A stretch of 64,000 bases of DNA. Origin: Vicinamibacteria bacterium. GTDB lineage: Bacteria > Acidobacteriota > Vicinamibacteria > Vicinamibacterales > JAENWD01. Below are positions 1,264 through 49,190 of the stretch, piece after piece; within the stretch, counting starts at the first letter, position 1; each line of letters begins with the position of its first letter. Position numbers and translations under genes: made by a program. Under the pieces are notes generated by a model, which was given only the letters and a program-made list of their open reading frames with translations, did not search any database and was not told the origin of the DNA. The stretch covers positions 73,865-137,864 of the forward strand of contig CAVXNR010000015.1 of the NCBI GenBank assembly GCA_963763095.1. The letters run 5' to 3'.

Positions 1264-2682
1264 ATGAAGCTGTTGTATTTCGACTGTTTCAATGGCGCCT
1301 CGGGCGACATGATCCTGGGTGCCCTGCTCGACGCGGGGCTCCCGCTGGAGGACCTCCGCCGCGCGCTGGGGAGCCTCGGCATCGGCGAGTACGAAGTGGC
1401 CGCTGAGCGGGTGCTGCGGGCGGGGGTGTCGGCAACGAAGTTCCATCTGATCGAGCGAGGCGGCGAGGACGGGTCCGCCAGAACTGAAGTCCCGGCGCCA
1501 CATTCGCAGGCGCATCAGCACGAGCACGCTGACTCGCACACGCACGGCGTCGCACCCGCTCATGCCGGGAGTGAAGGCGTGGCACCACATTCGCACGTGC
1601 ACGTGCACGCGCACACCCACTCGCACTCCCACGACGGGGTCGCGCATGCTCACGCTGGGACTGAGGTCCCAGCGCCTCATTCGGAGTTGCACGACCACAC
1701 TCACCTGCACCCGCACTCACACCGCAGCCTGCCTGAGATCCTCGCGCTCATCGAGCGGTCGGCCATTCCGCCGGCAGGACGGGCGCGCGCGCGGCAGCTG
1801 TTCGAGCGGCTCGCCGAGGCCGAAGCGGCGATTCATCAGATGCCCGTCGAGCGCGTGCACCTGCACGAGGTCGGGGCCCTCGATTCCATCATCGACATCG
1901 TCGGCGCGGTCTTCGCGATCGAATGGTTCGGCGCCGGGCGGGTGGTGGTGTCACCGCTCAATGTCGGCGGAGGGATGGTGCGATCGGCGCACGGCCTGTT
2001 CCCGGTGCCGGCGCCCGCGACGATGCGGCTCCTCGGCGACGCGCCGATCTATTCGAGCGGCGTGCAGGCCGAGCTCCTGACGCCCACCGGCGCGCTGCTT
2101 CTGACCGGCCATGCCGACGCGTTCGGGCCCGTGCCGCCGATGCGCGTGGACGGTGTCGGCTACGGCGCCGGAACCCGCGAGCTTGCCGGCACGCCAAACG
2201 TGTTGCGTGTGCTCGTCGGCGAGAGCACCGCGGAATCCACGACCGAGCGGATCGTCGTGCTCGAGTGCGAGATAGACGACATGAACCCCCAGATCTTCGG
2301 CGTGCTGATGGACCGGCTGTACGCGGCGGGCGCGCTGGAGGTGTACTACTCCGCCGTCCAGATGAAGAAGAATCGACCTGGGACCCTGATCACCGTGCTG
2401 GCCGCGCCGGATCGGCGGGAGGAGCTGGCCGGGGTCATGTTCCGTGAGTCCACGACAATCGGCGTTCGCTATCACGATGTGGATCGCGAGCGGCTCGAGC
2501 GCGAGGTGGTCTCCCTCGAGACGCCGTTCGGCACGATTCGATTCAAGGTCGCCCGCCGGGCGGGTGCCGTCGTGAACGCGTCGCCCGAGTTCGAGGATTG
2601 TGTCCGCGTCGCCAGCGACCGTGGCATTCCCGTCAAGGACGTGCAGGCGGCAGCGATGCACGCCTGGCTGAGCAGAGTGTGA
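1264..2682 (+). CDS. larC: LarC (DUF111) nickel-insertion protein for the nickel-pincer cofactor, with a long His-rich insert
   Basis: MKLLYFDCFNGASGDMILGALLDAGL... matches DUF111/LarC over the full length. A ~90-aa His-rich stretch is present (HSQAHQHEHADSHTH...HVHVHAHTHSHSH...HDHTHLHPHSH). Start at ATG 1264 inside ORF 1246..2682. Confidence 0.85.
   Translation: MKLLYFDCFNGASGDMILGALLDAGLPLEDLRRALGSLGIGEYEVAAERVLRAGVSATKFHLIERGGEDGSARTEVPAPHSQAHQHEHADSHTHGVAPAHAGSEGVAPHSHVHVHAHTHSHSHDGVAHAHAGTEVPAPHSELHDHTHLHPHSHRSLPEILALIERSAIPPAGRARARQLFERLAEAEAAIHQMPVERVHLHEVGALDSIIDIVGAVFAIEWFGAGRVVVSPLNVGGGMVRSAHGLFPVPAPATMRLLGDAPIYSSGVQAELLTPTGALLLTGHADAFGPVPPMRVDGVGYGAGTRELAGTPNVLRVLVGESTAESTTERIVVLECEIDDMNPQIFGVLMDRLYAAGALEVYYSAVQMKKNRPGTLITVLAAPDRREELAGVMFRESTTIGVRYHDVDRERLEREVVSLETPFGTIRFKVARRAGAVVNASPEFEDCVRVASDRGIPVKDVQAAAMHAWLSRV
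1478..1680 (+). repeat. three in-frame copies of a REP-like hairpin element inside larC (1478-1503, 1564-1590, 1654-1680)
   Basis: The copies are ccagaaCTGAAGtCCCgGCgCCACAT, GCCGGGAGTGAAGGCGTGGCACCACAT and GCTGGGACTGAGGTCCCAGCGCCTCAT. All are read in the same frame as A(R/G)(T/S)E(V/G)(P/V)APHS. Confidence 0.6.
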
Positions 2683-2713: not shown

Positions 2714-4780
2714 ATGTCTTTTTTCCTGACCACCGCGATCGACTACGTCAACAGCCGTCCGCATCTCGGCACCGCCTACGAGAAGGTCACCACGGATGTG
2801 ATCGCGCGGTTCAAACGCCTGACGGGTGTCGAGACTCATTTCCTGATGGGCAACGACGAGCACTCGCAGAACGTCTTCAAGCGCGCGCGGGAGCTGGGCG
2901 AGGATCCGCTCGCCTACTGCGACCGCATGGAGACCGTGTTCCGCGGCGTCTGGGGACGGCTGTCGATTTCCTTCGACGACTTCATCCGCACAACCGAACC
3001 GCGTCACAAGGCGGGCGTACAAAAGCTCGTGAACGCCTGCCGGGCGAACGGCGACGTGTACGAGGGCCAGTACGAAGGCTACTACTGTGTCTCCTGCGAG
3101 GCGTTCAAGCAGGATAAGGATCTAGTCGACGGCAAATGCGCCGTGCACCTGACGCAACCCGAGTGGATCCGGGAAAAGAACCACTTCTTCCGCCTGTCGC
3201 GCTATCAGCAGCCGCTGCTCGAGCACTACGCCGCGCACCCGGAGTTCATCCAGCCGGAAGTACGCCGCAACGAAATCCTGCGCCTGGTCGAGGCGGGCCT
3301 CGAGGACATCTCCATCAGCCGCGCCGGACAGTCCTGGGGCATCCCGCTGCCCTTCGAGGAGAGCAGCGTTGTCTACGTGTGGTTCGACGCCCTCATCAAC
3401 TACGCGTCCGCGGTGGGCTACGGCACCGACGACGAGCAGTTTGCGCGGTGGTGGCCGGCCGACCTCCACGTGGTCGGCAAGGACATCACGCGATTCCACT
3501 GTGTCGTCTGGCCCGCCATGCTCATGAGCGCGGGAGTACCCCTTCCGAAACAGGTGTTCGGCCACGGGTGGGTGCACTTCAAGGGCCACAAGATGAGCAA
3601 GACGCTCGGCACCGTCGTCGATCCGCTCGACGCCGCCGAGCGGCTCGGGGCCGACCCGCTGCGCCTGTATCTCGTCAAGGAGATCCCGTTCGGGGGCGAC
3701 GGTGACTTCTCGTGGGAGCGGTTCGAGGAGCGGTACAACGTCGATCTCGCGAACAACCTGGGCAACCTCGTGAGCCGCATCACGACCATGGCCGAGAAGT
3801 ATCGCGGGCTGCAGGTGGCGCCCACGACGCTCGGGTCGGGACGCCTGGCCGACGTGGCGACCGACGTGCTCGCGACCTACATCGATGCCATGGAGCGCTT
3901 TGCCCTCCATGAAGGCGCGTTCGCGGCCTTCCGGCTCGTCGACGCGTGCAACGAGTTCATCGCGGAGTCGGCGCCGTGGGCCCTTGCGCGCGACCCCGCC
4001 GATGCCGAGCGCCTGTCGCAGGTGCTCTACGATGTCGCCGAAGCGCTGCGAATCGTGGGGATCCTGCTGCAGCCTGTGATGCCGACGGCCGGCGTTGAGA
4101 TCCTCCGCCGCGCGGGAGAGACCCGGCCGGTCGGCGAGCTGCGGCTTGCGCGCGATGCAGCATGGATGTCCGACAGGCCGCGCACGCTCGTAAAAGGCCC
4201 GAACCTCTGGCCGCGCCTCGAAGCGGCGCGGCCCGCGACCAGCCCCCCCTCGACCCCGAGAACGGAGACGCGCTTGAGCGACACGCCCGACTGGAAACCA
4301 AATGCGCCGGCACCGGATGCGCCACTCTCCGCCGGGACTGAAGTCCCGGCTCCACATCAGAGTGGTCTGTCCGCTGCGACTGAAGGCTCGGCTCCACAAC
4401 CCTCGGCTCCGCCGGCAGCCCCGCAAGCGGCGGCCGGACAACCCGCCGGCGGAGAGCGAGTGTCCATCGACGAGTTCGCGAAGATCGAGCTGCGCGTCGC
4501 CAAGGTCCTCACCGCGGAGCGCGTGCCCAAGTCGAAGAAGCTGATGAAGCTCTGGATCGATCTCGGCAACGAGCAGCGCACCCTCGTCGCTGGCATCGCC
4601 GAGGCCTACGAACCCGAGCAACTCGTCGGCCGCACGATCGTGATCGTCGCGAACCTGAAGCCTGCCAAGCTGATGGGCATCGAATCAAACGGCATGATCC
4701 TCGCGGCCTCGGGAGAGGACGGCCGCCCGCTGCTCTTGTCGGCCGAAGACGGCGCCGAGCCGGGGATGCGGGTCAAATGA
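2714..4780 (+). CDS. metG: methionyl-tRNA synthetase with C-terminal Trbp111/EMAP-type tRNA-binding domain
   Basis: MSFFLTTAIDYVNSRPHLGTAYEKV... is class I MetRS. It has a KMSKT loop (HKMSKTLG) and a C-terminal ISIDEFAKIELRVAKVL...ANLKPAKLMGIESNGMILAAS domain. A low-complexity Pro/Ala linker joins the two parts. Start at ATG 2714. Confidence 0.93.
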   Translation: MSFFLTTAIDYVNSRPHLGTAYEKVTTDVIARFKRLTGVETHFLMGNDEHSQNVFKRARELGEDPLAYCDRMETVFRGVWGRLSISFDDFIRTTEPRHKAGVQKLVNACRANGDVYEGQYEGYYCVSCEAFKQDKDLVDGKCAVHLTQPEWIREKNHFFRLSRYQQPLLEHYAAHPEFIQPEVRRNEILRLVEAGLEDISISRAGQSWGIPLPFEESSVVYVWFDALINYASAVGYGTDDEQFARWWPADLHVVGKDITRFHCVVWPAMLMSAGVPLPKQVFGHGWVHFKGHKMSKTLGTVVDPLDAAERLGADPLRLYLVKEIPFGGDGDFSWERFEERYNVDLANNLGNLVSRITTMAEKYRGLQVAPTTLGSGRLADVATDVLATYIDAMERFALHEGAFAAFRLVDACNEFIAESAPWALARDPADAERLSQVLYDVAEALRIVGILLQPVMPTAGVEILRRAGETRPVGELRLARDAAWMSDRPRTLVKGPNLWPRLEAARPATSPPSTPRTETRLSDTPDWKPNAPAPDAPLSAGTEVPAPHQSGLSAATEGSAPQPSAPPAAPQAAAGQPAGGERVSIDEFAKIELRVAKVLTAERVPKSKKLMKLWIDLGNEQRTLVAGIAEAYEPEQLVGRTIVIVANLKPAKLMGIESNGMILAASGEDGRPLLLSAEDGAEPGMRVK
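4331..4399 (+). repeat. two in-frame copies of the REP-like hairpin element inside the metG linker (4331-4357, 4373-4399)
   Basis: GCCGGGACTGAAGTCCCGGCTCCACAT has a 7-bp stem CCGGGAC/GTCCCGG. A decayed copy is GCTGCGACTGAAGGCTCGGCTCCACAA. They are translated as AGTEVPAPH and AATEGSAPQ. Confidence 0.6.
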
Positions 4781-6215: not shown

Positions 6216-10846
<4,631 letters not shown>

Positions 10847-12262: not shown

Positions 12263-12656
12263 CCGCAGCCGCGCCAGACGATCGCCGCTCGCGGGAGGCC
12301 GGGTTCGCCCGGAACCATCACGAGGGGAGGAAAGTCCGAACTCCGCAGGGCAGTGCGCCGGGTAATCCCCGGTCGGGGCAACCCGAAGGAAAGTGGCACA
12401 GAAAATATACCGCCCCGTCGACCGGCAACGGAGATGAGGTAAGGGTGAAAAGGTGCGGTAAGAGCGCACCGCGCCAGTGGCAACACGGGTGGCAGGCAAA
12501 ACCCCGCACGGAGCAAGACCAAATAGGGAGGCGTTCGAGGACGGCCCGTCCGAAGCCTCCGGGTCGGTCGCTTGATCCCGCCAGTAATGACGGGGCTAGA
12601 GGAATGGTCGTCCCGCCGGAAGGCGGACAGAATTCGGCTTACGGCGCGACTGCGGC
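12262..12656 (+). ncRNA. rnpB: RNase P RNA, bacterial type A
   Basis: Hallmark blocks are GGAGGAAAGTCCGAACTCCGCAGGGCAG, GGTAAGGGTGAAAAGGTGCGGTAAGAGCGCACCGC, CAAATAGG and ACAGAATTCGGCTTAC. P1 is formed by GCCGCAGCCGCGCC (12262-) pairing with GGCGCGACTGCGGC (-12656). Ends are +/- a few nt. Confidence 0.93.
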
Positions 12657-12683
12657 ACTCTCATGTCACACCCCGGCGGCATC

Positions 12684-13974: not shown

Positions 13975-14928
<954 letters not shown>

Positions 14929-14951: not shown

Positions 14952-15017
14952 ATGTGGGGCAGGCCTTCAGGCCTGCTAGAGCGCACCGATTTGCAGGGCT
15001 GAAGCCCTGCCCCACAT
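14952..15017. repeat. inverted pair of REP-like elements (probable bidirectional terminator between convergent genes)
   Basis: ATGTGGGGCAGGCCTTCAGGCCTGC lies at 14952-14976. GCAGGGCTGAAGCCCTGCCCCACAT lies at 14993-15017. Each is itself a hairpin, and the two are mutually complementary. Confidence 0.85.
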
Positions 15018-15147: not shown

Positions 15148-16140
15148 CTATCGTCCCACCAGCACCTTCACGCGAAACGTCAGCCCGCCCAGGTTCGTTT
15201 CCCCGAATTCACCCGAGACGCCCGGCATGCCAAGCGCGTCCGGTACGGTCGTGTACTGCACTTCAAAGGCGGTAAACACCCACTTGCTCACCCCCACTTC
15301 GACGCCGCCGAGCGCGTGGTAGCTGGTGTGACGTTCGTCGACGTTCTCCGACGGGTCCGCGAACTCGGAGGTCTCGCGGAGGCGATACAATCCGAACCCG
15401 CCGCCCGCGTACGACACCAGCGTCGAGGTCGATCGGAAACGGTATCCGGCTGTCACAGTGATAGGGTTGATGGTGGCGCGGTTCTCGATGCCGAGCGGAA
15501 ACACCTCGCCGTCCGACACGACCACGCGCTGACCCGTCTTCTTGAACTGTTCGAAGGAGCCCTCGACGAACAGCTTGTCGAAGATGACCACCTGCGCGCC
15601 GCCGCCATAGAAGGGCTGCCAGGCGCTGTCGAAGATCGCATCGAAGGTGTCTTTCGCCTGGAACACGCCGTAGCTGCCAGTGGCGAAGCCACGCACGCCT
15701 ACGGTGGGCGGCTTCGGTGCGGGCGCGCGAGGCGTTTGCGCCCTCGGGTTGCCGGACGCATCCCACATGGATTCGCTGCTCCTGGACTGGCGCAGCGGAA
15801 TGTCCGGCGTGCCGGCGATGTGCTCGACGTGGGCGGCGAGCACGAATCCCGTGTTGCCCTTGCCGCCTTCCTTGGCTGGGACGAGAACCTCGATCCAGCG
15901 GTCCTCTCGTGCGACGGCCCGCAGGACGGTGCCCGACTTGACGACCGCCAGCACCAGGCTGGGATTGCGTTTCCAGATCGTCGTCTGATCCTTGACCACG
16001 CGCACCTCGCTCGGCGCCGCGGGTTGTGCCGGTGTTTGCTCCTGGGCATCCACCGCGGCCGCCCCGAACGCGAGCGACAGGACCAGCGCGCCGATGCGCC
16101 CATGCACACGGGTCACGAGACCACCTCTCCGGGCGGTCAT
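15148..16140 (-). CDS. outer-membrane beta-barrel protein with N-terminal SH3-like domain
   Basis: The signal peptide is RIGALVLSLAFGAAAVDAQE. Alternating hydrophobic beta-strand patterns run to the C-terminus (..GGLTFRVKVLVGR). Its ATG overlaps the stop of the upstream S8 protease gene (ATGA). Confidence 0.65.
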   Translation of the reverse strand: MTARRGGLVTRVHGRIGALVLSLAFGAAAVDAQEQTPAQPAAPSEVRVVKDQTTIWKRNPSLVLAVVKSGTVLRAVAREDRWIEVLVPAKEGGKGNTGFVLAAHVEHIAGTPDIPLRQSRSSESMWDASGNPRAQTPRAPAPKPPTVGVRGFATGSYGVFQAKDTFDAIFDSAWQPFYGGGAQVVIFDKLFVEGSFEQFKKTGQRVVVSDGEVFPLGIENRATINPITVTAGYRFRSTSTLVSYAGGGFGLYRLRETSEFADPSENVDERHTSYHALGGVEVGVSKWVFTAFEVQYTTVPDALGMPGVSGEFGETNLGGLTFRVKVLVGR

Positions 16141-19052: not shown

Positions 19053-19411
19053 GGGTGCCGGACACGACCGACGGGTTGCCACGGCGGGAGCGTCGCACGT
19101 TTTCACGCGTGCACTACGCGCGCGGGATCCTGCCGCCGGGCGTGCGCGTGCAGCCGGCCCGCGAGGTCATTGCCGTGAACCTCTCGCGCGGGGGCGTGCT
19201 GGTGGAGAGTGCGTGGCGCTTTCGGCCCGGCGGCAGCGTCACCGTGCACGTCCAGCAGGGAACCGGCGGGTTCCAGGTGCGCGGGGCCGTCGAGCGATGC
19301 CTGGTGCACGCTCTCGAGCGGGGCGGGGGTGTGCGCTACCGCGCCGCGATCAGGTTCGAGGCGCCGCTCGTCGGCGATCCCCCGACCGATGCGTTGTACG
19401 GCGCCGGCTGA
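19037..19411 (+). CDS. PilZ-domain protein
   Basis: RRERRTFSRV...VNLSRGGVLVES matches the PilZ RxxxR and (D/N)xSxxG motifs. ATG 19037 lies within ORF 18575..19411. Confidence 0.7.
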   Translation: MAHTVGVPDTTDGLPRRERRTFSRVHYARGILPPGVRVQPAREVIAVNLSRGGVLVESAWRFRPGGSVTVHVQQGTGGFQVRGAVERCLVHALERGGGVRYRAAIRFEAPLVGDPPTDALYGAG

Positions 19412-19419
19412 ACTCAGCG

Positions 19420-19652
19420 CACGTGAGCCGTGATCGTGTGCGATCCGCCGGGGCGAGGCGTATAGTGGCACGCGATCAGGAGACCGCGTGGATCGACGAA
19501 CGTTCGTGCGCCTGCTGGGCGGCGGTGCCCCTCGCGACGCCGCGAGACACAGACAAACGTCCGCGCGTGCGCGTGGTCAGTCAGTATCGCCCTTTCGTGA
19601 CCCCAGGCATGCCGGGCCGCTCCCCGGGGCTCGTCGTCGCCGTGGGCTCGGA
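19420..19652 (+). repeat. copy 1 of a ~230-280 bp diverged direct repeat (pilZ-downstream spacer plus DUF362 5' end)
   Basis: It aligns with 20872-21120 at roughly 85-90% identity by eye, with one indel block. Confidence 0.85.
19488..19652 (+). pseudogene. truncated duplicate of the DUF362 gene 5' end (TAT signal plus first ~35 mature codons)
   Basis: VDRRTFVRLL.. then, after a 1-nt shift, AAVPLATPRDTDKRPRVRVVSQYRPFVTPGMPGRSPGLVVAVGSD. Homology to the full gene at 20942.. stops at 19652. Confidence 0.7.
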
Positions 19653-19797
19653 CCCGCGTGGCGGCCTCGCTCCGCGTGTGGGCCAGATGTCTACGTCCCA
19701 CCGATCAGCCGTTGGGCTGCACTGCCCGACATCTACACGTTCGCGAAATTCTCTCGATAAGATGCGCGCGCGTCAGTTCACTTTCAGGAGGTCGCTC

Positions 19798-20811: not shown

Positions 20812-20843
20812 ACCATGGTGGACGAAGGGGATCGACGTCAGGT

Positions 20844-21120
20844 GCCACGACGGGAGCGTCGCACTTTTTCACGCGTGTGATCCGTGGTCGTGTGCGATTC
20901 GCCGGCGCAAGGCGTATAGTGGCACGCGATCAGGAGACCGCGTGGATCGACGAACCTTCGTGCGCCTGCTGGCGGCGGTACCCCTCGCGACACCGCGAGA
21001 CACACCGAGAGACACACACGACGTCCCGCCGCGTGCGCGTGGTCAGTCAGTATCGCCCTTCCGTGACCCCAGGCATGCCGGGCCGCTATCCCGGACGCGT
21101 CGTCGCCGTGGGCTCGGACC
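20844..21120 (+). repeat. copy 2 of the direct repeat, beginning with a 34-bp fragment of the pilZ 5' end
   Basis: 20844-20877 (gccacgacgggagcgtcgcactttttcacgcgtg) matches pilZ 19078-19111. The rest matches 19424-19652. Confidence 0.85.
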
Positions 21121-24702: not shown

Positions 24703-26034
24703 TCAGGGGCTGGGGGCGGATCCGTAATCGGGCGCCAGCGTCTCCCAATCCGGCTTCGTGAGCCCATTCAGGTCGAACACGACGTTGCCATCTCGCAGCG
24801 TCAGCTCACACACCAGGCGCGTGCTGCCGTGCAGGCGGGCACCATACGAGTCGACGAATCCGAACCGGCCGTGTTCGACGCGCAGCACGGCGATGTCTGC
24901 GATGGCGCCAACCGAGAGATGGCCGATTGACTCCTGCTTCACCTCGCGCGCGGGATTCCAGGTGGCCCTGCGCACCACGTCGTCGAGCGGCACCTCGAGC
25001 GCGAGGAGCTTGCTCATCACGTTCAGCATGTCCTTCATGCCGGCGTTCATGCTGCCGATGTGGAGGTCGGTCGAAATCGAGTCCGGGAGGAATCCCGCGC
25101 GAACGGCGGGGACGGCGACTCGCCAGAGAAAGCTCCCGCCGCCGTGACCGACGTCGAAGATGACCCCGCGCTTCCGTCCTTCGAACAACGCGGGGTTCAG
25201 GTGCCCGGGGCGGTCGAGCTCGCCCCGCAGCCCGGAGTAGACGTGGGTGTAGATGTCGCCCGGCCGCAGCTTCGTCGTGACGAGCGCCGCGAGCGGCCGT
25301 TCCGGCTGATTCTTTCCGAAATCGACCATCACCGGGATGTCGGCCGCGGTGCCCGCTTCGACCGCGCGCTCCACGGGCGCCCATTCGGGGCCGGCGTAGT
25401 GTGCCGTCTTGACGCCGACGATCGTGCCACGGTTGGCCCGCGCCACGTTCACGGTCGGCTGCACCTCCATGTCGCCGAGGTTCTGCTCGAAGGTGTCGCC
25501 CCGCATACCGTGGCCGACGATGTTGAGAAAGGCGAGCACGCGCGTGCGGGAGCGCGTGATCACGCGTGACCGGAAATCGTCGAAGTTCCGCCAGCCCGAA
25601 CTGCCCGCATCGACGACCGTAGTGACGCCCGCCCGGAACGTGAACCCGTCGGGGTAGACGCTGTTGTCACCCGCGTACGAGCGCGCCTCTCCAGTGCCGG
25701 CGTAGACGTGCACGTGAATGTCGACGAGACCCGGCGTGACGTAAAGGCCCGTGACATCCACCGTCTGGGCGGCTTCGGCCGGATCGATCCCTGGCGCGAC
25801 CGCGGCAACGACGCCCGAGCGGATGGCCAGGTCGCGCACGGCGCTGAGTCCGTTTCGCGGATCGATGACGTGGCCGCCGCGGAGGAGGAGATCGTATCGG
25901 TGCGCGCTCTGCGCCGGACGGGCGGAGGATGGCGGCAGAATGAAAAATGAAAAATGAAAAATGAAAAAGGCAGAGCAACGCGGCGACGCGCAGCCGCAGC
26001 GGCGTTCGCGTGGCTGATTCCACTCTCGATTCAC
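24703..26034 (-). CDS. amidohydrolase/deacetylase-family metallohydrolase (D-aminoacylase/dihydroorotase-like)
   Basis: YDLLLRGGHVIDP... and GLVDIHVHVYAG are the motifs. The only in-frame ATG/GTG/TTG upstream of the domain is GTG 26034. That gives an N-terminus whose hydrophobic core FFIFHFSFFI is encoded by the heptamer array. Confidence 0.8.
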   Translation of the reverse strand: MNREWNQPRERRCGCASPRCSAFFIFHFSFFILPPSSARPAQSAHRYDLLLRGGHVIDPRNGLSAVRDLAIRSGVVAAVAPGIDPAEAAQTVDVTGLYVTPGLVDIHVHVYAGTGEARSYAGDNSVYPDGFTFRAGVTTVVDAGSSGWRNFDDFRSRVITRSRTRVLAFLNIVGHGMRGDTFEQNLGDMEVQPTVNVARANRGTIVGVKTAHYAGPEWAPVERAVEAGTAADIPVMVDFGKNQPERPLAALVTTKLRPGDIYTHVYSGLRGELDRPGHLNPALFEGRKRGVIFDVGHGGGSFLWRVAVPAVRAGFLPDSISTDLHIGSMNAGMKDMLNVMSKLLALEVPLDDVVRRATWNPAREVKQESIGHLSVGAIADIAVLRVEHGRFGFVDSYGARLHGSTRLVCELTLRDGNVVFDLNGLTKPDWETLAPDYGSAPSP

Positions 26035-26072
26035 GGATCGAGTTTTTCATTTTCCATTCTTCATTCTTCATT
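25939..26072. repeat. inverted pair of AT-rich heptamer arrays: (AATGAAA)x4 ... (TTTCATT-type)x4
   Basis: 25939-25966 is AATGAAA x4. 26045-26072 is TTTCATT TTCCATT CTTCATT CTTCATT. The spacer is ~78 bp. Confidence 0.93.
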
Positions 26073-29869: not shown

Positions 29870-30925
29870 GTCCTGGACATCGATGCACGCGTACTCGGCG
29901 CGCTACGGCGTGGTCTCGTTATCCCGGCACATCCCCTCGCGCTCACAGCCGACGGGACACTGGACGAGCGTCACCAGCGCGCGCTGACGCGGTACTATCT
30001 CGCAGCTGGAGCCGGCGGGCTCGCCGTCGGCGTGCACACGACGCAGTTCGCGATCCGCGACGCCTCGGTGGGGCTCTTCGAGCCGGTGCTGGCCCTTGCC
30101 TCGGAGGAGATCGCACGTGCCGACGCCGGACGTGATGTGCCGGTCGTGCGCATCGGCGGAATCTGTGGCACGACGCCACAGGCAACCCGCGAAGCCGGGC
30201 TGCTCCGTGATCTCCGATTCCACGCGGGGCTGCTCAGTCTTGCGGCGCTCGGCCGATCCACGGACGACGAGCTGCTTGCGCACTGCCGCACCGTCTCGGA
30301 GGTGATCCCGATCGTCGGCTTCTACCTGCAACCCTCGGTCGGTGGGCGACCCCTGTCATACGCGTTCTGGCGCCGCTTTGCGGACCTGCCGAACGTCGTC
30401 GCGATCAAGATTGCGCCGTTCAACCGCTACCAGACCCTGGACGTCGTCCGCGCGGTGACAGAATCGGGCCGCGACGACATCGCGCTTTACACCGGCAACG
30501 ACGACAACATCGTGCTGGACCTGATCACCCCGTTCCGCTTCGCGGCGACCGAGGCGGGGACGCCGCGCCGCATCGTCGGCGGGCTGCTTGGCCACTGGGC
30601 CGTCTGGACGCGCACCGCCGTAAAACTGCTGGAGGAGTGTCAGCGGGTCGGTGAGACCGTGCCGCGCCAGCTGCTGCAACGTGCGGCGGAGGTGACCGAT
30701 GCTAATGCAGCCTTCTTCGACGCAGCACACGGATTCGCGGGGTGCATCGCCGGCCTCCATGCGGTGCTGCAACGGCAGGGACTGCTCGCAAGCACGCGGT
30801 GCCTCGACCCGCGCGAGACGCTCAGCCCGGGACAGGCCGAGGAGATCGACCGCGTGTACGCCGCCTACCCCCACCTGAACGACGATGAGTTCGTGGCGCG
30901 GCAGCTTGACGAGTGGCTGCGGTAG
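29870..30925 (+). CDS. dihydrodipicolinate synthase-family (class I aldolase-like) protein; start codon unresolved
   Basis: ORF 30032..30925 stays open and protein-like upstream (VLDIDARVLGALRRGLVIPAHPLALTADGTLDERHQRALTRYYLAAGAGGLAVGVHTTQF). No ATG/GTG/TTG is present there. GGAGGA lies at 29864-29869. Confidence 0.65.
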   Translation, partial: VLDIDARVLGALRRGLVIPAHPLALTADGTLDERHQRALTRYYLAAGAGGLAVGVHTTQFAIRDASVGLFEPVLALASEEIARADAGRDVPVVRIGGICGTTPQATREAGLLRDLRFHAGLLSLAALGRSTDDELLAHCRTVSEVIPIVGFYLQPSVGGRPLSYAFWRRFADLPNVVAIKIAPFNRYQTLDVVRAVTESGRDDIALYTGNDDNIVLDLITPFRFAATEAGTPRRIVGGLLGHWAVWTRTAVKLLEECQRVGETVPRQLLQRAAEVTDANAAFFDAAHGFAGCIAGLHAVLQRQGLLASTRCLDPRETLSPGQAEEIDRVYAAYPHLNDDEFVARQLDEWLR

Positions 30926-30940
30926 CGACGGACGAACCGT

Positions 30941-31125
30941 GCAGGGCTGAAGCCCTGCCCCACATGGCAGTGATCAGCCCCGCCCCGGCAGGACTCGCAG
31001 CCTGCCTGCGGTGACGCTGTGGCGCCAGGTCCGATGTGGGGCAGGGCTTCAGCCCTGCATGCCGGATGTGGGGCAGGCTTCAGCCCTGCATGCTGGATGT
31101 GGGGCAGGGCTTCAGCCCTGCATGC
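30941..31125. repeat. REP-like element cluster: one reverse copy plus three tandem forward copies
   Basis: GCAGGGCTGAAGCCCTGCCCCACAT lies at 30941-30965. GATGTGGGGCAGGGCTTCAGCCCTGCATGC-type copies lie at 31033-31062, 31064-31093 and 31095-31125, with a period of 31-32 nt. The cluster sits between convergent genes. Confidence 0.9.
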
Positions 31126-31164: not shown

Positions 31165-32976
31165 TCAGCGGGAGCGTTCATAGACGACGCGACCGCCTAC
31201 GACGGTCGTCTCCGGAACGATGTCTCTGATTTGCTCGGCCGGAACCGTGAGGAGATCGTCCGAGAGGACCACGAGGTCGCCCAGCTTGCCGACCTCGATC
31301 GATCCCTTGCGCGTCTCGTCGAACGTGAGGTACGCGGCGTCGATGGTCATCATGCGCAGGGCCTCGTCGCGCGTGATGGCCTGCTCGGGCCCGATCACGC
31401 GGCCCCGTTCGGTTCTCCGCGTCACGGCAACGTACATCGTCAGGAAGGGATTGAACGGATTCAGCGACGTGTTCGGATCCAGGCCGAACATGTGGTCGCT
31501 GTTCAGCACGACCCGCACCCCACCGTTCACCCATTGCCGTAGTCCAATCAGGGTGCGCACGCGGGCTTCGCCGAGCACCTCTGCGAGCACGTCGCCGTCC
31601 TTGTAGTACCACGCGGGCTGGGTGTCGACGATCACGCCCAGAGCAGCGGCGCGTCGTGCTGCGGCGGCGTTGGCGAAGTCCGCATGGATCAGCGTGAACC
31701 GCCGCGGCCGGATGGGGGCCTCGCGGTTCGCGGCCTCGAACGCGTCGAGCACCGCATCGACACCCGCATCGCCCGTCACGTGGGCGCAGGCCTGCCAGCC
31801 GTGACGATGTGCCGTGAGAACGATTGCCAGCATCTTATCCGGCGACAGTGTGAGGAAACCGCGATCGTCAGGGTTGGCCAGTCCGTACAGAGCCGCGGCC
31901 GCCTCGCCCCACGGCTGGCGCATGAACGCGGTGCCGCTGAGGATGCCACCATCCGCGAATACCTTCAGCGCTCCGCCCTTCAGCTGATCGTCTCCCGCCC
32001 TGAAGCCCGCCGGCACGGTCCGCAGGAACTGCTCCGTCCCGTCCTCCGTGCCATCGGATTGGACCAGCAGGGTGACCACTGCGCGAAGCCGCAGCCTGCT
32101 CTCCGCATGCAGCTGCTCGTAGGCCCGGTACCCTTCGACAGATGCAGCGCGCTCGACGATGCTGGTGATTCCGACGGCGGCATAGCTCTGGTGCACGCGG
32201 GCCAGCCACTCCAGCGGCGGCCCGCCTTTGCCGGTGCGCGTATCGAAGCGCGACAGCAGCGCGCCCACGTTCCGCAGCAGGCCGGTTGGCTCACCGGCCG
32301 CGTCCCTGACGATGACGCCTCCAGCGGGATTCGGGGTTGCGGGCGTGATCCCGGCGGCACGGAGCGCGGCCGAATTGACGGCCAGCGCGTACGCACCATC
32401 CACGACGACCGGGTGCTCTGGCGCGGCGGCATCGAGCTCCGCCCGCGTGGGGAACCGGCGCTCGCGCAAGCGCGGCGGAAAGGTGCGCGGTGTCCAGATC
32501 CAGCCGCCGTCGGGTACTGTTGCTGCGCGTGCGCGCACCCATGTCTGCAGGCTGGGGATGTCCTGGAGCGAGACGTACGGCTGGAATGCCTCGCCCTCGG
32601 CGACACCGAGCGCATGCACGTGGCTCTCGATCAGGCCCGGCACCACCGTGCGACCGCCGGCGCGGATCACGCGCGTGCGGTCACCGATGAACGGTGTGAT
32701 GTCGGTGTCCTTGCCGACCGCGACGAACACGCCGTCGCGCACGGCGACGGCCCCGGCAATGCGCGATGAGGGATCGACGGTGACCACCTTACCGTTCAGG
32801 ACGACCAGGTCCGCTGGCGCCTGGGCGTACGGCAGTAATGGGAGGGCGATCAGCAGCGCCGGAATCACCCACCCACGGGGCGCCCGGGCGCGTGGGGAGG
32901 GGTGTGGGCGAGCGCGTTGCTGCACGCGTGGCATGCGGCGGATTCTAGGTCGGGTCAGCCCTGCCGTCTCAGACAT
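31165..32976 (-). CDS. secreted Amidohydro_3-family metal-dependent hydrolase
   Basis: The signal peptide is WVIPALLIALPLLPYAQA. Motifs are GLIESHVHALG and VLNSDHMFG. The start may be ATG 32934 instead. Confidence 0.82.
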   Translation of the reverse strand: MSETAGLTRPRIRRMPRVQQRARPHPSPRARAPRGWVIPALLIALPLLPYAQAPADLVVLNGKVVTVDPSSRIAGAVAVRDGVFVAVGKDTDITPFIGDRTRVIRAGGRTVVPGLIESHVHALGVAEGEAFQPYVSLQDIPSLQTWVRARAATVPDGGWIWTPRTFPPRLRERRFPTRAELDAAAPEHPVVVDGAYALAVNSAALRAAGITPATPNPAGGVIVRDAAGEPTGLLRNVGALLSRFDTRTGKGGPPLEWLARVHQSYAAVGITSIVERAASVEGYRAYEQLHAESRLRLRAVVTLLVQSDGTEDGTEQFLRTVPAGFRAGDDQLKGGALKVFADGGILSGTAFMRQPWGEAAAALYGLANPDDRGFLTLSPDKMLAIVLTAHRHGWQACAHVTGDAGVDAVLDAFEAANREAPIRPRRFTLIHADFANAAAARRAAALGVIVDTQPAWYYKDGDVLAEVLGEARVRTLIGLRQWVNGGVRVVLNSDHMFGLDPNTSLNPFNPFLTMYVAVTRRTERGRVIGPEQAITRDEALRMMTIDAAYLTFDETRKGSIEVGKLGDLVVLSDDLLTVPAEQIRDIVPETTVVGGRVVYERSR

Positions 32977-33610: not shown

Positions 33611-33710
33611 TCCAGGCTCCAGGCTACAGCCTGCAGGCTGCAGAACTGTCGGGCCGGCGAGCCTTGAGCCCAACAGGCCGGCAGCCCGTAGTCTGCAGCC
33701 CGCCGCCTGA
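33611..33710. repeat. heptamer tandem array (TCCAGGC-type x5) followed by related degenerate GCAGCC units
   Basis: TCCAGGC TCCAGGC TACAGCC TGCAGGC TGCAGAA lies at 33611-33645. ggcagcccgtagtctgcagcccgccgcctg lies at ~33679-33708. Confidence 0.75.
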
Positions 33711-40164: not shown

Positions 40165-40228
40165 GATGCAATTGAGATCGGGAGGTGTTTGCAGAAATCG
40201 ACAAACACCTCCCGATCTCAATTGCATC
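40165..40228. promoter_or_regulatory. perfect 27-bp inverted repeat (10-nt spacer) in the glcD / permease divergent region
   Basis: GATGCAATTGAGATCGGGAGGTGTTTG lies at 40165-40191, the spacer cagaaatcga follows, and CAAACACCTCCCGATCTCAATTGCATC lies at 40202-40228. Confidence 0.6.
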
Positions 40229-40257
40229 AATTGCCTGACGTGGAGCCGGAGCTTACG

Positions 40258-41898
40258 ATGAGCTGGACGCAGACCTACGATCCACTCGGCCACGCCTGGC
40301 TGTCGACGGTGTGCGCTGCGTTGCCCATCGTCGCGCTGCTCGGCTCGCTTGCGTTCCTGCGCCTGCGGGCGCACACGGCAGCGCTGATCGGGCTCGGCAC
40401 GTCGGTCCTCATGGCTACGGCGGCGTTCGGCATGCCGCTCAGCATGGCCGTGGCGAGCGCGGCGTACGGCGCCGCCTTCGGGCTGCTGCCCATCGGCTGG
40501 ATCGTGCTGAACGTCATCTTCCTGTACCAGCTGACGGCCGAACGCGGACTCTTCGCCACGCTGCGCCAGAGCATCACGCACGTGACGACGGATGCGCGGC
40601 TGCAGCTGCTGCTGGTGGCGTTTGCCTTCGGTGCGTTCTTCGAGGGCGCCGCCGGGTTCGGCACGCCCGTCGCCGTGACCGGCGCGCTGCTCATCGGCCT
40701 GGGCTTCGCGCCGCTGGCGGCATCGGGCCTCTCGCTCATCGCCAACACCGCGCCGGTGGCATTCGGAGCCCTCGGCACACCGCTCATCGCGCTCAGCGCG
40801 GTGAGCGGACTCGACCTCCACGCCTTGAGCGGCATGGTGGGCCGGCAGCTCCCGTTCTTCTCGGTGCTCGTGCCGTTCTGGCTGGTCGCCGCCTTCGCTG
40901 GATGGCGCGGGATGCTTGGAATCTGGCCGGCGATCCTCATGGCCGGCGTGCCATTTGCCGCACTGCAGTTCCTCGTCTCGAACCTGCACGGACCCTGGCT
41001 CGTCGATGTCGTCGCCTCGATCACTTCGATGGCCGCGCTCGTGCTCTTCCTGCGCGTTTGGCACCCGCGGGACGGCTGGGCCCCTGGCGGACGCATTGGC
41101 ACGCGGATGGACGAGGGCGCGGCCATGCCTCTGCCGACAGAGGTCATCCGCGCATGGATCCCGTGGATCATCCTGAGCGTCGTCGTGTTCGTGTGGGGGC
41201 TGCCGTACATCAAGGGCGCACTCGACGCATGGACGACGGTGCGCGTTCCTGTTCCCGGGCTGCACAACCTGGTGCTGCGCGTGCCTCCCGTGGTGCCCGA
41301 TCCCGCGCCCGAGACCGCCGTCTTCGCGCTGTCGTGGGCGTCCGCGACCGGCACCGGCATCTTCGTCGCGGCGATCCTCGCAGGGCTTGGCATGGGGTGC
41401 TCGCCCACAGATCTGGCGCGCACGTACTGGCGCACCGTACGCCTGGTGCGCATGTCGCTGCTGACCATCGCCGCCATGCTGGCGCTCGGCTTCACGACGC
41501 GCTACGCGGGGCTTGATGCGACGCTTGGACTCGCGTTCGCCGACACCGGCGTGCTCTATCCATTCTTCGGCACGATGCTCGGGTGGCTCGGCGTGGCGCT
41601 GACCGGGTCGGACACATCGTCGAACGTGCTGTTCGGGAGTCTGCAGCGCATCACGGCCGAGCAGCTGGGGATCAATCCCGTCCTGATGGCTGCCGCCAAC
41701 AGCTCAGGCGGCGTGATGGGCAAGATGATCGATGCCCAGAGCATCGTCGTGGCAAGCACCGCCACCCGCTGGTATGGGCACGAGGGCGACATCCTCCGCT
41801 ACGTGTTCTGGCACAGCCTCGCCCTGGCAGCGCTCGTGGGATGCGTCGTGATGCTGGAGGCCTACGTGTGGCCGTTCTCCGGACTCGTCGGCTGGTGA
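40258..41898 (+). CDS. L-lactate/glycolate permease (LctP family)
   Basis: MSWTQTYDPLGHAWLSTVCAALPIVALL... is a ~546-aa polytopic membrane protein with LctP-family blocks (FGLLPIGWIVLNVIFLYQLT, LLVAFAFGAFFEGAAGFGTPVAV). Confidence 0.88.
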   Translation: MSWTQTYDPLGHAWLSTVCAALPIVALLGSLAFLRLRAHTAALIGLGTSVLMATAAFGMPLSMAVASAAYGAAFGLLPIGWIVLNVIFLYQLTAERGLFATLRQSITHVTTDARLQLLLVAFAFGAFFEGAAGFGTPVAVTGALLIGLGFAPLAASGLSLIANTAPVAFGALGTPLIALSAVSGLDLHALSGMVGRQLPFFSVLVPFWLVAAFAGWRGMLGIWPAILMAGVPFAALQFLVSNLHGPWLVDVVASITSMAALVLFLRVWHPRDGWAPGGRIGTRMDEGAAMPLPTEVIRAWIPWIILSVVVFVWGLPYIKGALDAWTTVRVPVPGLHNLVLRVPPVVPDPAPETAVFALSWASATGTGIFVAAILAGLGMGCSPTDLARTYWRTVRLVRMSLLTIAAMLALGFTTRYAGLDATLGLAFADTGVLYPFFGTMLGWLGVALTGSDTSSNVLFGSLQRITAEQLGINPVLMAAANSSGGVMGKMIDAQSIVVASTATRWYGHEGDILRYVFWHSLALAALVGCVVMLEAYVWPFSGLVGW

Positions 41899-49100: not shown

Positions 49101-49190
49101 GCGACGACGACGAACGGGGCGCGCAGCGCGACAATCACCGCAGGCGGTAAGACGCTCGCCGTGCAGCAGAGCGGCCTAAGGAAAAAGTAA
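46117..49190 (+). CDS. secreted right-handed beta-helix protein with six C-terminal Ig/BACON-like repeats (two 5' frame breaks)
   Basis: ATG 46117 gives MGINRIGF. After removal of one T from the T4 run at 46138-46141 it continues LTALTFTLAVSLPAAGA|TITVEAGGNLQAAL.., a good signal peptide. A second break lies at 46388-46400, joining ..GQRTSPQ to YLPKLKSPNNVAALTIQPG... The body has ENNY.EGAGENLMFGG and NN-type beta-helix turns, followed by six ~84-89-aa repeats. Confidence 0.75.
47628..49190 (+). repeat. tandem coding repeats: five near-identical units (252, 252, 252, 267, 267 bp) plus one divergent unit
   Basis: Units start at 47628, 47880, 48132, 48384, 48651 and 48918. Units 2 and 3 appear identical at DNA level. 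Each encodes P(V/A)C(A/T)F(T/S)(L/V)APSSHDSPAGGDTFSV.VTAS.ASCAWS.SAAPW.TPS.TGG.GSGTV.LTVSPNATTAPRSASV... Confidence 0.92.

What the first reader, a model, noticed from the sequence alone, without database searches (positions are those of the whole stretch)
1478..1680. REP-like elements inserted in-frame within larC (RPE-like behaviour)
Three segments in the larC His-rich region resemble the intergenic REP element in reverse orientation (GCAGGGCTGAAGCCCTGCCCCACAT). They are ccagaaCTGAAGtCCCgGCgCCACAT (1478-1503), GCCGGGAGTGAAGGCGTGGCACCACAT (1564-1590) and GCTGGGACTGAGGTCCCAGCGCCTCAT (1654-1680). All are read in the same frame as A-x-(T/S)-E-(V/G)-(P/V)-A-P-H-S, so the CCACAT tail supplies Pro-His codons. 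The copy at 1654-1680 retains a 7-bp stem (CTGGGAC/GTCCCAG). Established analogy: Rickettsia palindromic elements insert in-frame into protein genes. Inference: part of the LarC His-rich insert was built from such elements.
Basis: partly seen in the sequence, partly recalled or inferred. Interest (0 to 1): 0.7.

Follow-up and report, generated by a model that had tools for sequence, protein, structure and literature searches.

The report
Palindromic repeat copies inside protein genes
Short selfish hairpin repeats (REP elements), normally found between genes, have been copied in-frame into the flexible loops of larC, the neighbouring metG and several other housekeeping genes of a soil Vicinamibacteria lineage. 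This is a clear new example of a phenomenon already described in Rickettsia, Opitutus and other bacteria.

Summary
The three larC segments (1477-1503, 1564-1590, 1654-1680) lie 2-4 mismatches from a 27-nt repeat consensus, GCCGGGAC-TGAA-GTCCCGGC-NCCACAT ("REP8"). REP8 is an 8-bp-stem sister of the window's intergenic repeat ("REP7").

- **More copies:** two further copies sit in the adjacent metG linker; 4331-4357 is a perfect 27/27 match. Chance expectation for all five is 0.005.
- **A real REP family:** in relatives REP8 is abundant and mostly intergenic, with covarying stems, a GTGG/GTAG tag and inverted doublets.
- **Restricted to a subclade:** LarC, MetRS and Fmt orthologs show the segments only there, with copy number changing by whole units.
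- **Other hosts in relatives:** in-frame copies also occur in nadE, fmt, hpnC, ybeY and an E2 linker, and as C-terminal tails.
- **Frame bias:** Pfam-verified internal copies use only two of five open frames (AGTEVPAPH sense, VEPGLQSRR antisense).

The source is REP8 rather than REP7. The three larC copies probably reflect one or two insertions followed by unit duplication or recombination.

Intragenic REPs were already described by Di Nocera et al. 2013, so this is a new member of a known kind. The hairpins decay in coding copies, so no function is indicated.

The parts
1264..2682 (+). larC (nickel-pincer cofactor nickel insertion protein), the host gene
   Evidence: Pfam PF01969, E 5.5e-140, covering residues 4-460. 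An identical 472-aa protein, P0001, is in the database. Residues 61-151 (the His-rich and REP-derived region) replace about 8 residues of the solved full-length LarC 12bi.
1473..1503 (+). larC REP8-derived copy 1: GTCC prefix plus GCCAGAACTGAAGTCCCGGCGCCACAT, encoding (S)ARTEVPAPH
   Evidence: 2 mismatches to REP8. 6 of 8 stem pairs remain. No significant hairpin is left.
1564..1590 (+). larC REP8-derived copy 2: GCCGGGAGTGAAGGCGTGGCACCACAT, encoding AGSEGVAPH. Decayed.
   Evidence: 4 mismatches. 4 of 8 stem pairs remain. The first copy in L001 is a hybrid of window copies 1 and 2.
1654..1680 (+). larC REP8-derived copy 3: GCTGGGACTGAGGTCCCAGCGCCTCAT, encoding AGTEVPAPH. Hairpin intact.
   Evidence: 4 mismatches, two of which are a compensatory T-A pair at synonymous sites. 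Folds at -17.7 kcal/mol, z = -3.4.
2714..4780 (+). metG (methionyl-tRNA synthetase), a second host gene immediately downstream of larC
   Evidence: Pfam tRNA-synt_1g plus a C-terminal tRNA_bind domain at residues 593-685. The REP copies lie in the linker between these domains.
4325..4357 (+). metG REP8 copy 1: CTCTCC prefix plus GCCGGGACTGAAGTCCCGGCTCCACAT, encoding LSAGTEVPAPH. A perfect consensus copy.
   Evidence: 0 mismatches. Identical to intergenic copies in relatives, e.g. L006 391, L008 62 and L013 2290. Folds at -17.1 kcal/mol, z = -4.0.
4367..4399 (+). metG REP8 copy 2: CTGTCC prefix plus GCTGCGACTGAAGGCTCGGCTCCACAA, encoding LSAATEGSAPQ. Decayed; lies 42 nt after copy 1.
   Evidence: 5 mismatches. 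Repeat family D6. The 42-nt unit is present once in L002, L049 and L050, twice in the window and three times in L048.
14952..15017 (.). Intergenic REP7 pair: 14952-14976 (-) and 14993-15017 (+), between convergent genes
   Evidence: Gene calls 13975-14928 (+) and 15148-16140 (-). Hairpin -13.8 kcal/mol, z = -3.3.
30941..31121 (.). Intergenic REP7 cluster: 30941-30965 (+), 31034-31058 (-), 31066-31089 (-, with a 1-nt deletion) and 31097-31121 (-), between convergent genes
   Evidence: Gene calls 30032-30925 (+) and 31165-32868 (-).

Best explanation
The three larC segments, and two more in the adjacent metG linker, are in-frame copies of a REP-type palindromic repeat.

**The element.** The conserved block is about 31 nt: (GTCC)GCCGGGAC-TGAA-GTCCCGGC-NCCACAT. 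On the other strand this reads as a GTGG/GTAG tag followed by an 8-bp hairpin. The family populates the intergenic DNA of this Vicinamibacteria lineage as single units and as inverted doublets.

**How copies reached coding DNA.**
- *Shown:* copies are present in surface loops and inter-domain linkers, and more distant orthologs lack them.
- *Inferred:* the entry mechanism is REP/REPIN mobilisation by a RAYT-type tyrosine transposase, or recombination with other copies.

**Which copies survived.** Survivors keep the reading frame open and encode a hydrophilic, flexible peptide:
- sense frame: (LS)AGTEVPAPH
- antisense frame: (D)VEPGLQSRR(T)

The sites are loops that tolerate extra residues. In LarC this is the variable His-rich loop just before the conserved H-x-H of the nickel-binding surface. 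In MetRS it is the linker before the tRNA-binding domain.

**After entry.** The copies behave as nearly neutral sequence. The hairpins decay, the peptides vary, and recombination or slippage between copies changes the number of whole units. The units are 42 nt in metG and about 87-90 nt in larC, where the unit carries a His-rich block. About one third of the 91-aa LarC insert is therefore REP-derived, and REP-mediated unit duplication probably helped expand the rest.
For: **Homology to an intergenic repeat**
- Five window copies lie within <=5 mismatches of REP8, against 0.005 expected.
- metG 4331-4357 is identical to many intergenic copies in other genomes.

**REP nature of the family**
- The conserved block is about 31 nt.
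- Stem position 6/15 covaries: G-C 154, A-T 31, C-G 15, non-pairs 10.
- Inverted '+ then -' doublets predominate: 39, against 9 and 24 for the other arrangements.
- 154 of 210 copies in 523 kb of metagenome contigs are intergenic.
- A GTGG tag variant of GTAG REPs is documented in the literature (PMC3733652).
- A RAYT (NF047646, 90.9 bits, cut-off 80) lies on a contig that carries REP8.

**Insertion into genes**
- LarC: the motif occurs in only 9 of 120 homologs, all among the closest.
- MetRS: L053 lacks it, and other loci carry 1-3 units at the same position.
- Fmt: normal orthologs are 309-318 aa and P0141 has an empty site. The closest orthologs carry 25-90 aa built from REP peptides. The minimal insert is one REP doublet.
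- Pfam domains flank the in-frame copies in NadE, HpnC, Fmt, YbeY and E2.

**Frame bias**
- All 32 larC/metG copies are in one frame.
- All 13 sense copies scored as internal read AGTEVPAPH-like. 14 of the 15 antisense internal copies read VEPGLQSRR-like; the exception is the doubtful L094 ORF.
- The favoured frames have worse codon scores than the unused ones, so the bias is not an artefact of gene calling.

**Neutral decay**
- Mismatches are spread 28:34:46 over codon positions 1, 2 and 3.
- Changed stem pairs are compensated less often in coding copies than in intergenic ones: 9% against 21%, p = 0.001.

**Unit recombination**
- L001 carries a hybrid copy.

**Location in LarC**
- The insert replaces about 8 residues of solved LarC. 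It lies next to the essential surface histidines H70/H72 (PMC13510736).
Against: - No intergenic REP8 copy lies in this 64-kb window; only REP7 does. The source pool in this particular genome is therefore inferred from relatives.
- The RAYT that was found is flanked by a different GTAG REP, not REP8, so the mobilising enzyme for REP8 is unidentified.
- Insertion boundaries in larC and metG cannot be drawn cleanly, because the host regions are low-complexity. In fmt the insert also replaces a few loop residues.
- The perfect 27/27 conservation of metG copy 1 in both the window and L048, despite roughly 31% divergence at fourfold sites, is not fully explained by neutral decay.
- The genome-scan pattern forced parts of the consensus, so conservation at positions 5-26 is partly circular.
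Confidence: 0.88

Rival explanations
1. This is a refinement rather than an exclusive rival. larC received only one or two REP insertions, and the three copies seen now arose by tandem duplication or unequal recombination of a longer unit: REP-derived peptide, then a His-rich block, then (G/E)VAHAH.
For: - The repeated unit extends beyond the REP: three 73-nt copies at 74% and 67% identity, spaced 87 and 90 nt apart.
- 'VAHAH-AGTEVPAPH' recurs in the orthologs.
- The first copy in L001 is a hybrid of window copies 1 and 2, and one unit is missing there.
- Copy number varies from 1 to 3 among close relatives.
- metG shows the same unit-wise variation.
Against: - TRF does not detect an 87-90-nt period.
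- Similarity outside the REP part could simply reflect His-codon low complexity.
- Site 1 (after 'ED(G/A)S') and the distal sites have different upstream contexts, so at least two events remain possible.
Confidence: 0.55
2. The peptide AGTEVPAPH is a selected protein motif, for example a His-containing metal or linker motif. On this view the DNA similarity to REPs is a by-product or convergence.
For: - The motif ends in His and sits in a His-rich nickel-binding loop.
- All copies are in one frame.
Against: - The same DNA occurs in the MetRS linker and in NadE, Fmt, HpnC and YbeY, proteins that do not share LarC's nickel-insertion function.
- Most copies are intergenic and occur in both orientations.
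- Stems covary at the nucleotide level.
- The peptides vary freely, with substitutions spread over all codon positions.
- Rare codons are retained.
- Distant LarC orthologs lack the motif.
Confidence: 0.03
3. The coding copies are domesticated. The hairpin or peptide is maintained by selection, for example as a translational pause between domains, an mRNA stability element, or an evolvable generator of linkers and His modules.
For: - There is a compensatory pair of synonymous changes in larC copy 3: GCT...CCA restores a T-A pair, whereas L001 has C...A.
- metG copy 1 is 27/27 identical in the window and L048, although about 31% of fourfold sites differ.
- Usage is restricted to two frames.
Against: - Three of the five window copies have lost the hairpin.
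- Changed stem pairs are compensated less often in coding than in intergenic copies: 9% against 21%, p = 0.001.
- Retention of A/T third positions in REP codons is not significantly above that in the rest of the genes: 52% against 40%, p = 0.11.
- The frame bias can be explained by purifying selection against Cys-, Trp- and Phe-containing frames.
Confidence: 0.1
4. The resemblance is due to chance or to low-complexity sequence, or it is an assembly or annotation artefact.
For: - The region is GC-rich and low-complexity.
- Some relatives are long-read MAGs with frameshifts: metG is split in L001 and L003.
Against: - Shuffles give 0.005 expected matches against 5 observed.
- The copies are present in more than 10 independent assemblies, short-read and long-read, always in frame and with conserved domains on both sides.
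Confidence: 0.01

Closest known systems
Intragenic GTAG-/CGTC-tagged REPs (Di Nocera, De Gregorio & Rocco 2013, BMC Genomics 14:522; PMC3733652), especially Opitutus terrae GTAG-20
   Same: - Short hairpin repeats of 20-40 bp with a terminal GT[AG]G tag. The tag is GTGG in O. terrae GTAG-20.
- Mostly intergenic, between convergent or unidirectional genes, and often in inverted dimers.
- A minority sit in-frame inside genes as single units, dimers or clusters encoding roughly 10-80 aa. The hosts include tRNA synthetases, and some copies lie at ORF ends.
   Different: - A different phylum (Acidobacteriota, Vicinamibacteria) and a different repeat sequence.
- The hosts here are larC, metG, fmt, nadE, hpnC and ybeY, rather than mainly DNA-repair genes.
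- The restriction to two reading frames, and the doublets that pair a G-C stem subtype with an A-T stem subtype, were measured here. I did not find them in the parts of that paper I read.
Rickettsia palindromic elements (RPE; Ogata et al. 2000, Science 290:347)
   Same: Palindromic selfish repeats inserted in-frame into genes that stay functional. They are tolerated because the encoded segment lies on the protein surface.
   Different: RPE-1 is about 105-146 bp, against 27-33 nt per unit here. There is no sequence relationship, and the host is an alphaproteobacterial intracellular parasite. The comparison is an analogy, not membership.
E. coli BIMEs and Pseudomonas REPINs (REP doublets mobilised by RAYTs; Bertels & Rainey 2011; Nunvar et al. 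2010). Cited from my own knowledge and from the reference lists seen.
   Same: Inverted doublets made of two slightly different REP subtypes. A RAYT gene is present in the lineage.
   Different: Those elements are described as extragenic. Here, doublets also lie in-frame inside fmt, hpnC and nadE. The cognate RAYT for REP8 has not been identified.
Repeat-derived 3' or 5' ORF extensions (RUP, BRE, ERIC/YPAL; reviewed by Delihas 2011, PMC3184786)
   Same: The repeats supply the C-terminal residues and the stop codon of host ORFs. Here the tail is 'SAGTEVPAPH' followed by a TGA, which comes from the loop of a following half-REP. This is seen on ClpA-like, GDSL and GFO-family genes of relatives.
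   Different: Those elements are longer MITE-like repeats in other phyla.

Membership tests
REP (repetitive extragenic palindrome), GTAG-tagged superfamily | Short unit of 20-40 bp | tested here: met
   The conserved block runs from about -3 to +27, roughly 31 nt, in 57 intergenic copies. REP7 copies are 25-27 nt.
REP (repetitive extragenic palindrome), GTAG-tagged superfamily | Palindrome that forms a stem-loop, supported by covariation | tested here: met
   8-bp stem with a TGAA loop, -17 kcal/mol, z = -3.4 to -4.0. Stem pair 6/15 is G-C in 154 copies, A-T in 31, C-G in 15 and unpaired in 10.
REP (repetitive extragenic palindrome), GTAG-tagged superfamily | Conserved terminal GT[AG]G tetranucleotide | tested here: met
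   - The reverse complement of the CCAC(AT) tail is (AT)GTGG.
- The tag is present in all six REP7 copies, which were found without forcing the tail.
- It reads GTAG in the second copy of the fmt doublet.
- A GTGG variant is documented.
- Caveat: both scan patterns specified CCACA, so its conservation in REP8 hits is partly forced.
REP (repetitive extragenic palindrome), GTAG-tagged superfamily | High copy number, predominantly intergenic | tested here: met
In the genome loci, 55 of 85 REP8 copies are intergenic. In the metagenome loci, 154 of 210 are. The source genome itself was not surveyed beyond the window.
REP (repetitive extragenic palindrome), GTAG-tagged superfamily | Frequent inverted doublets (REPIN/BIME-like) | tested here: met
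   39 '+ then -' pairs within 300 nt, against 9 '- then +' and 24 direct. Doublets combine a G-C and an A-T stem subtype.
REP (repetitive extragenic palindrome), GTAG-tagged superfamily | Cognate RAYT gene flanked by the same REP (REPtron) | tested here: inconclusive
   A RAYT (NF047646, 90.9 bits against a cut-off of 80; PF01797) lies at L064 4693-5334 (-), on a contig that also carries REP8. It is flanked by a different GTAG REP, GTAGGGCCGGGGCCGAAG(C/T)GCCCCGGCC. No RAYT motif was found in the window.
Intragenic REPs in the sense of Di Nocera et al. 2013 | The repeat is read in-frame within an ORF whose homologs lack the segment, with conserved domains on both sides | tested here: met
   LarC, MetRS, Fmt, and NadE, HpnC and YbeY.
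Rickettsia palindromic elements (RPE) | Sequence and size of the RPE families (about 105-146 bp) in Rickettsia genomes | tested here: not met
   The units here are 27-33 nt, have an unrelated sequence and come from an Acidobacteriota host (RPE size). Only the behaviour (in-frame, tolerated) is shared.
LarC / Ni_insertion (PF01969), the host gene | Full-length match to the family profile and to solved LarC | tested here: met
   PF01969 at 467 bits, profile positions 1-374 of 375. PDB 12bi, E 2.6e-87, aligned in two blocks that flank the insert.

The most novel reading that the evidence does not exclude
The REP copies inside genes are not just tolerated junk. On this reading, the lineage uses a REP/REPIN family as an evolvable module generator.

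- Recombination between copies would rapidly change the number of His-rich nickel-binding modules in LarC and the linker length in MetRS, Fmt and NadE.
- At least some coding hairpins would be kept by selection. Candidates are larC copy 3, which has a compensatory synonymous pair, and metG copy 1, which is perfectly conserved. They could act as mRNA-level signals such as translational pauses or stability elements.
Probability: 0.1. Interest if true: 0.7.

Novelty: new member of a known kind. Interest (0 to 1): 0.5.

Why it matters
- **Scope of the phenomenon.** It extends in-frame colonisation of genes by REPs to Acidobacteriota (Vicinamibacteria), an abundant and largely uncultured soil group. 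Essential translation and cofactor genes are affected: metG, fmt, ybeY, nadE and larC.
- **Origin of part of the LarC insert.** It explains part of the unusually long His-rich insert of this LarC. It also gives a simple mechanism, recombination between repeat copies, for length variation of that nickel-binding loop among close relatives.
- **A quantitative handle.** The strict use of two of five open frames measures which random peptides proteins tolerate in loops.
- **Annotation.** These repeats create false N-terminal extensions, split genes in long-read MAGs, and supply C-terminal tails and stop codons.

Tried and rejected
- **Peptide search.** A protein search with a synthetic 3x LSAGTEVPAPHQSG query was meant to list every protein carrying the peptide. 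It found 447 word-sharing candidates but none at E<=10 (one search was a parameter error). It was uninformative and cost one search.
- **Nucleotide-level selection.** I tested whether A/T-ending third positions are retained more in REP codons than in the rest of the genes. The result was 52% against 40%, p = 0.11, and the larC alignment is unreliable in the low-complexity region. No claim is made.
- **Tandem-repeat detection.** TRF found no 87-90-nt or 42-nt period; only short His-codon repeats were reported. The unit structure therefore rests on the repeat finder and on ortholog comparison.
- **RAYT search.** A first regex for the HUH motif found nothing in the window or the first 47 loci. 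A broader regex later found one RAYT on L064, but it is flanked by another REP family. That GTAG REP is absent from the window.
- **Candidate coding hits rejected or left open.**
  - L016 (HtrA): the ORF tail looks frameshifted and non-coding.
  - L135 (DyP-like): the C-terminal part is dubious.
  - L094 (CGAGTSVPA frame): no Pfam hit and a low coding score.
  - 'CDS' hits with MWSRDFSPG at residue 0-4 are start-codon artefacts of my own gene caller.
- **Rfam.** No family matches the repeats; the only hit in the window is RNase P RNA.
- **First stem-decay comparison.** One search was contaminated by reverse-strand self-hits of the palindrome. It was redone with a tail/loop filter. That set may still include half-REPs, so the result is only weak evidence.
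Full report
**1. What is in the window**

The window has 67% G+C. It begins with a syntenic block of radC, larC (1264-2682, +), metG (2714-4780, +) and tatD.

LarC identity is firm. It matches PF01969 at E 5.5e-140, and an identical 472-aa protein is in the database. Syntenic relatives are Vicinamibacteria MAGs. For example, contig CAVUCH010000017 of MFD02840.bin.3.332 carries the P0008 ortholog.

All six lie in two gaps between convergent genes, at 14952-15017 and 30941-31121. None is expected by chance.

**2. Checking the observation**

They fit an 8-bp-stem variant better than REP7. I call this variant REP8: GCCGGGAC-TGAA-GTCCCGGC-NCCACAT. The larC copies have 2, 4 and 4 mismatches over its 26 specified bases.

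The repeat finder linked larC to two further copies in the next gene, metG (family D6). Copy 4331-4357 is a perfect 27/27 REP8 and copy 4373-4399 has 5 mismatches.

Five matches at <=5 mismatches compare with a mean of 0.005 in 200 dinucleotide-preserving shuffles. All five are on the coding strand and in the same frame (A-G-T-E-V-P-A-P-H).

Two copies keep a strong hairpin: larC copy 3 at -17.7 kcal/mol (z = -3.4) and metG copy 1 at -17.1 kcal/mol (z = -4.0). The other three have decayed.

**3. REP8 is a real intergenic repeat family**

Syntenic loci of relatives carry intergenic REP8 copies, at L003 8278 (+) and 8374 (-) and at L001 899-926.

36 of them came from one Vicinamibacteria MAG. 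An exact-consensus scan of JGI metagenome contigs also hit its limit, at 120 loci.

I wrote a simple codon-usage gene caller and used it to classify the copies. It reproduced the deposited gene calls of L002.

| Data set | REP8 copies | Intergenic | At gene edges | Near gene ends | Internal |
|---|---|---|---|---|---|
| Genome loci | 85 | 55 | 7 | - | 23 inside called genes, many of them start-codon artefacts |
| Metagenome loci | 210 | 154 | 18 | 11 | 27 |

The family has the anatomy of a REP:
- The conserved block is about 31 nt, (GTCC)GCC...CACAT.
- The stem covaries. At pair 6/15 there are 154 G-C, 31 A-T, 15 C-G and only 10 non-pairs.
- Inverted '+ then -' doublets dominate: 39, against 9 '- then +' and 24 direct.
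- Doublets typically combine a G-C and an A-T stem subtype.
- On the opposite strand the element starts with (AT)GTGG, or GTAG in one fmt copy. This is the GT[AG]G tag that defines the GTAG REP superfamily. A GTGG variant is documented for Opitutus terrae (PMC3733652).
- A bona fide RAYT (NF047646, 90.9 bits) lies on a contig that also carries REP8. However, it is flanked by a different GTAG REP, so the enzyme for REP8 remains unidentified.
- Rfam has no model for these repeats. The sequences and peptides are absent from the searchable literature.

**4.

*LarC.*
- Among the 120 best homologs, only 9 carry AGTEVPAPH-like segments. All 9 are among the closest (>=74% identity). The other 111 have His-rich loops without the motif.
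- At the DNA level the motif is always encoded by REP-like sequence with rare codons (ACT, GAA, CCA, CAT).
- Copy number varies from 1 to 3.
- L001 is 95% identical to the window. Its first copy is a hybrid of window copies 1 and 2, and one unit is missing. This is the signature of recombination between copies.
- The repeated unit extends beyond the REP: '(G/E)VAHAH-AGTEVPAPH-S-His-rich', spaced 87-90 nt. The three copies are therefore probably not three independent insertions.
- Relative to the solved full-length LarC (12bi), residues 61-151 replace about 8 residues. They lie just before the conserved H-x-H that corresponds to the essential surface histidines H70/H72 (PMC13510736).

*MetRS.*
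- All copies sit at one position, after the conserved '...DWKPNAPAPDAPLS'.
- The 42-nt unit is present once in L002, L049 and L050, twice in the window and three times in L048. It is degenerate in L051 and L052 and absent in L053.

*Both genes together.* Across 10 syntenic loci, all 32 larC/metG copies are in the same frame. Their differences from the consensus are spread 28:34:46 over codon positions 1, 2 and 3, so the peptide is weakly constrained.

**5. The phenomenon is general in this lineage**

Pfam-verified hosts in relatives, with conserved domains on both sides of the insert:

| Host | Loci | Insert |
|---|---|---|
| NadE inter-domain linker | L096 | One sense copy plus at least 3 antisense copies, about 110 aa |
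| HpnC-like squalene synthase | L036, L101, L112 | Sense plus antisense pair |
| Fmt C-terminal domain | L063, L079, L111 | Sense plus antisense pair |
| YbeY | L095, L138, L142 | Two antisense copies |
| A solute-binding protein | L164 | Two antisense copies near the C-terminus |
| E2 acyltransferase linker | L038 | One copy of a local REP variant |

C-terminal tails reading 'SAGTEVPAPH*' occur on ClpA-like, GDSL and GFO-family genes. The stop codon there is the TGA of a following half-REP.

For Fmt a clean presence/absence series exists:
- Normal orthologs are 309-318 aa.
- P0141 (316 aa, 74% identity) has an empty loop.
- The closest orthologs carry 25-90 extra residues made of REP peptides.
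- The minimal insert (P0127/L174) is one REP doublet: CTGTCC-GCCGGGAC-TGAA-GTCCCGGC-TCCACAA, then 24 nt, then an inverted A-T-subtype copy.

**6. Frame bias**

Five of the six frames of REP8 are open. The copies my caller scored as internal to a gene use essentially two of them.
- Sense AGTEVPAPH: all 13 sense internal copies, in larC, metG, hpnC, fmt, nadE and the doubtful L135 ORF. The same frame supplies three kinds of C-terminal tail.
- Antisense (D)VEPGLQSRR(T): 14 of the 15 antisense internal copies, in hpnC, fmt, nadE, ybeY and the solute-binding protein.
- The one exception reads CGAGTSVPA. It lies in L094, a low-scoring ORF with no Pfam hit.

These two frames have worse codon-usage scores (-4.3 and -1.9) than the unused open frames (+0.9 and +1.4). 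My codon-based caller therefore cannot have created the bias.

The unused frames encode Cys, Trp, Phe and Met. Selection for hydrophilic, flexible peptides is the simplest explanation, but this is an inference.

**7. Function, or neutral tolerance?**

Evidence against maintenance:
- Three of the five window hairpins are lost.
- Changed stem pairs are compensated less often in coding copies than in intergenic ones: 9% against 21%, p = 0.001. This is a noisy test.
- Third-position retention is not significantly elevated (p = 0.11).

Hints in favour of maintenance:
- larC copy 3 has a compensatory synonymous pair.
- metG copy 1 is perfectly identical between the window and L048, although about 31% of fourfold sites differ.

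I treat domestication as a minority reading, at about 0.1.

**8. Comparison with what is known**

In-frame REPs are already documented.
- Di Nocera et al. 2013 list intragenic GTAG/CGTC REPs in O. terrae, R. conorii, Thauera, Xanthomonas and others. These occur as single units, dimers or clusters and include tRNA synthetase genes.
- RPEs are the classic case (Ogata 2000).
- Repeat-derived ORF extensions are reviewed by Delihas 2011.

This finding is therefore a new member of a known kind. It is a new repeat family in a new phylum, with a clear two-frame rule and unit-wise expansion inside a nickel-binding loop. It is not an RPE: the size, sequence and taxon criteria all fail.

**9. Verdict**

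- The source variant is REP8.
- metG also carries copies.
- The larC copies probably arose by duplication of units rather than by three separate insertions.

Interest is moderate (0.5). The mechanism of entry, by RAYT or by recombination, remains inferred.

Noticed in passing
window 12265-12657 (+): Bacterial RNase P RNA class A (RF00010, 276 bits). It is the only Rfam hit in the window.
   Followed up: no
window 25939-25968 and 26043-26072: An AT-rich inverted repeat: (AATGAAA)n ... (TTCATT)n, with 30-nt arms about 90% complementary. The arms flank a 74-nt GC-rich spacer, in a 67% GC genome, next to an amidohydrolase gene. Its nature is unknown.
   Followed up: no
window 40165-40228: A perfect 27-bp inverted repeat (GATGCAATTGAGATCGGGAGGTGTTTG) with a 10-nt loop. 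It lies immediately upstream of an L-lactate permease gene (40231-41898, PF02652). It could be an operator or a regulatory hairpin. This is notable because larC, which is involved in lactate-racemase cofactor synthesis, is in the same window.
   Followed up: partly
window 46437-49190 (+), repeats at 47626-48948: A 917-aa protein with six BACON domains (PF13004). It is encoded by five tandem 252-nt repeats at 83-95% identity.
   Followed up: partly
window 19077-19654 versus 20843-21120: Several segments of 34-101 nt, 92-94% identical, are repeated about 1.45-1.77 kb apart (families D3, D4, D10 and D12). They lie around genes for an APP1-like phosphatase and a DUF362 protein. This looks like a local duplication of upstream or regulatory DNA.
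   Followed up: no
window 7227-7307 and 33613-33700: A third intergenic short-repeat type, made of CAGGCT/GCAGCC-like units (e.g. CTCCAGGCTCCAGGCTACAGCCTGCAGGCTGCAG). The same repeat appears in-frame as '[14 protein letters not shown]' inside the Fmt inserts of relatives (P0137, P0138, L063).
   Followed up: partly
L064 4693-5334 (-): A REP-associated tyrosine transposase (NF047646, 90.9 bits; PF01797). It is flanked on both sides by a different GTAG-tagged REP, GTAGGGCCGGGGCCGAAG(C/T)GCCCCGGCC, on a contig that also carries REP8 copies. The same GTAG REP is seen at L001 around 3455-3575. It is absent from the window.
   Followed up: partly
L048 1746-3134; L001 11356-13423; L003 11383-13511: Annotation and assembly side-effects of the repeats. 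radC in L048 is called with a 239-aa N-terminal extension, and REP copies lie just upstream of that call at 1471-1627. metG is split or frameshifted near the REP copies in two long-read assemblies.
   Followed up: partly
L064/L147, L076/L172, L011/L069/L173 (3' gene ends): Three unrelated genes (ClpA-like, GDSL lipase, GFO/IDH/MocA oxidoreductase) end in ...SAGTEVPAPH/Q. The stop codon that follows immediately is the TGA of the TGAA loop of a following truncated half-REP (TGAA-(G)TCCCGGC-NCCACAT). Full-plus-half REP arrays therefore supply both the C-terminus and the stop.
   Followed up: yes
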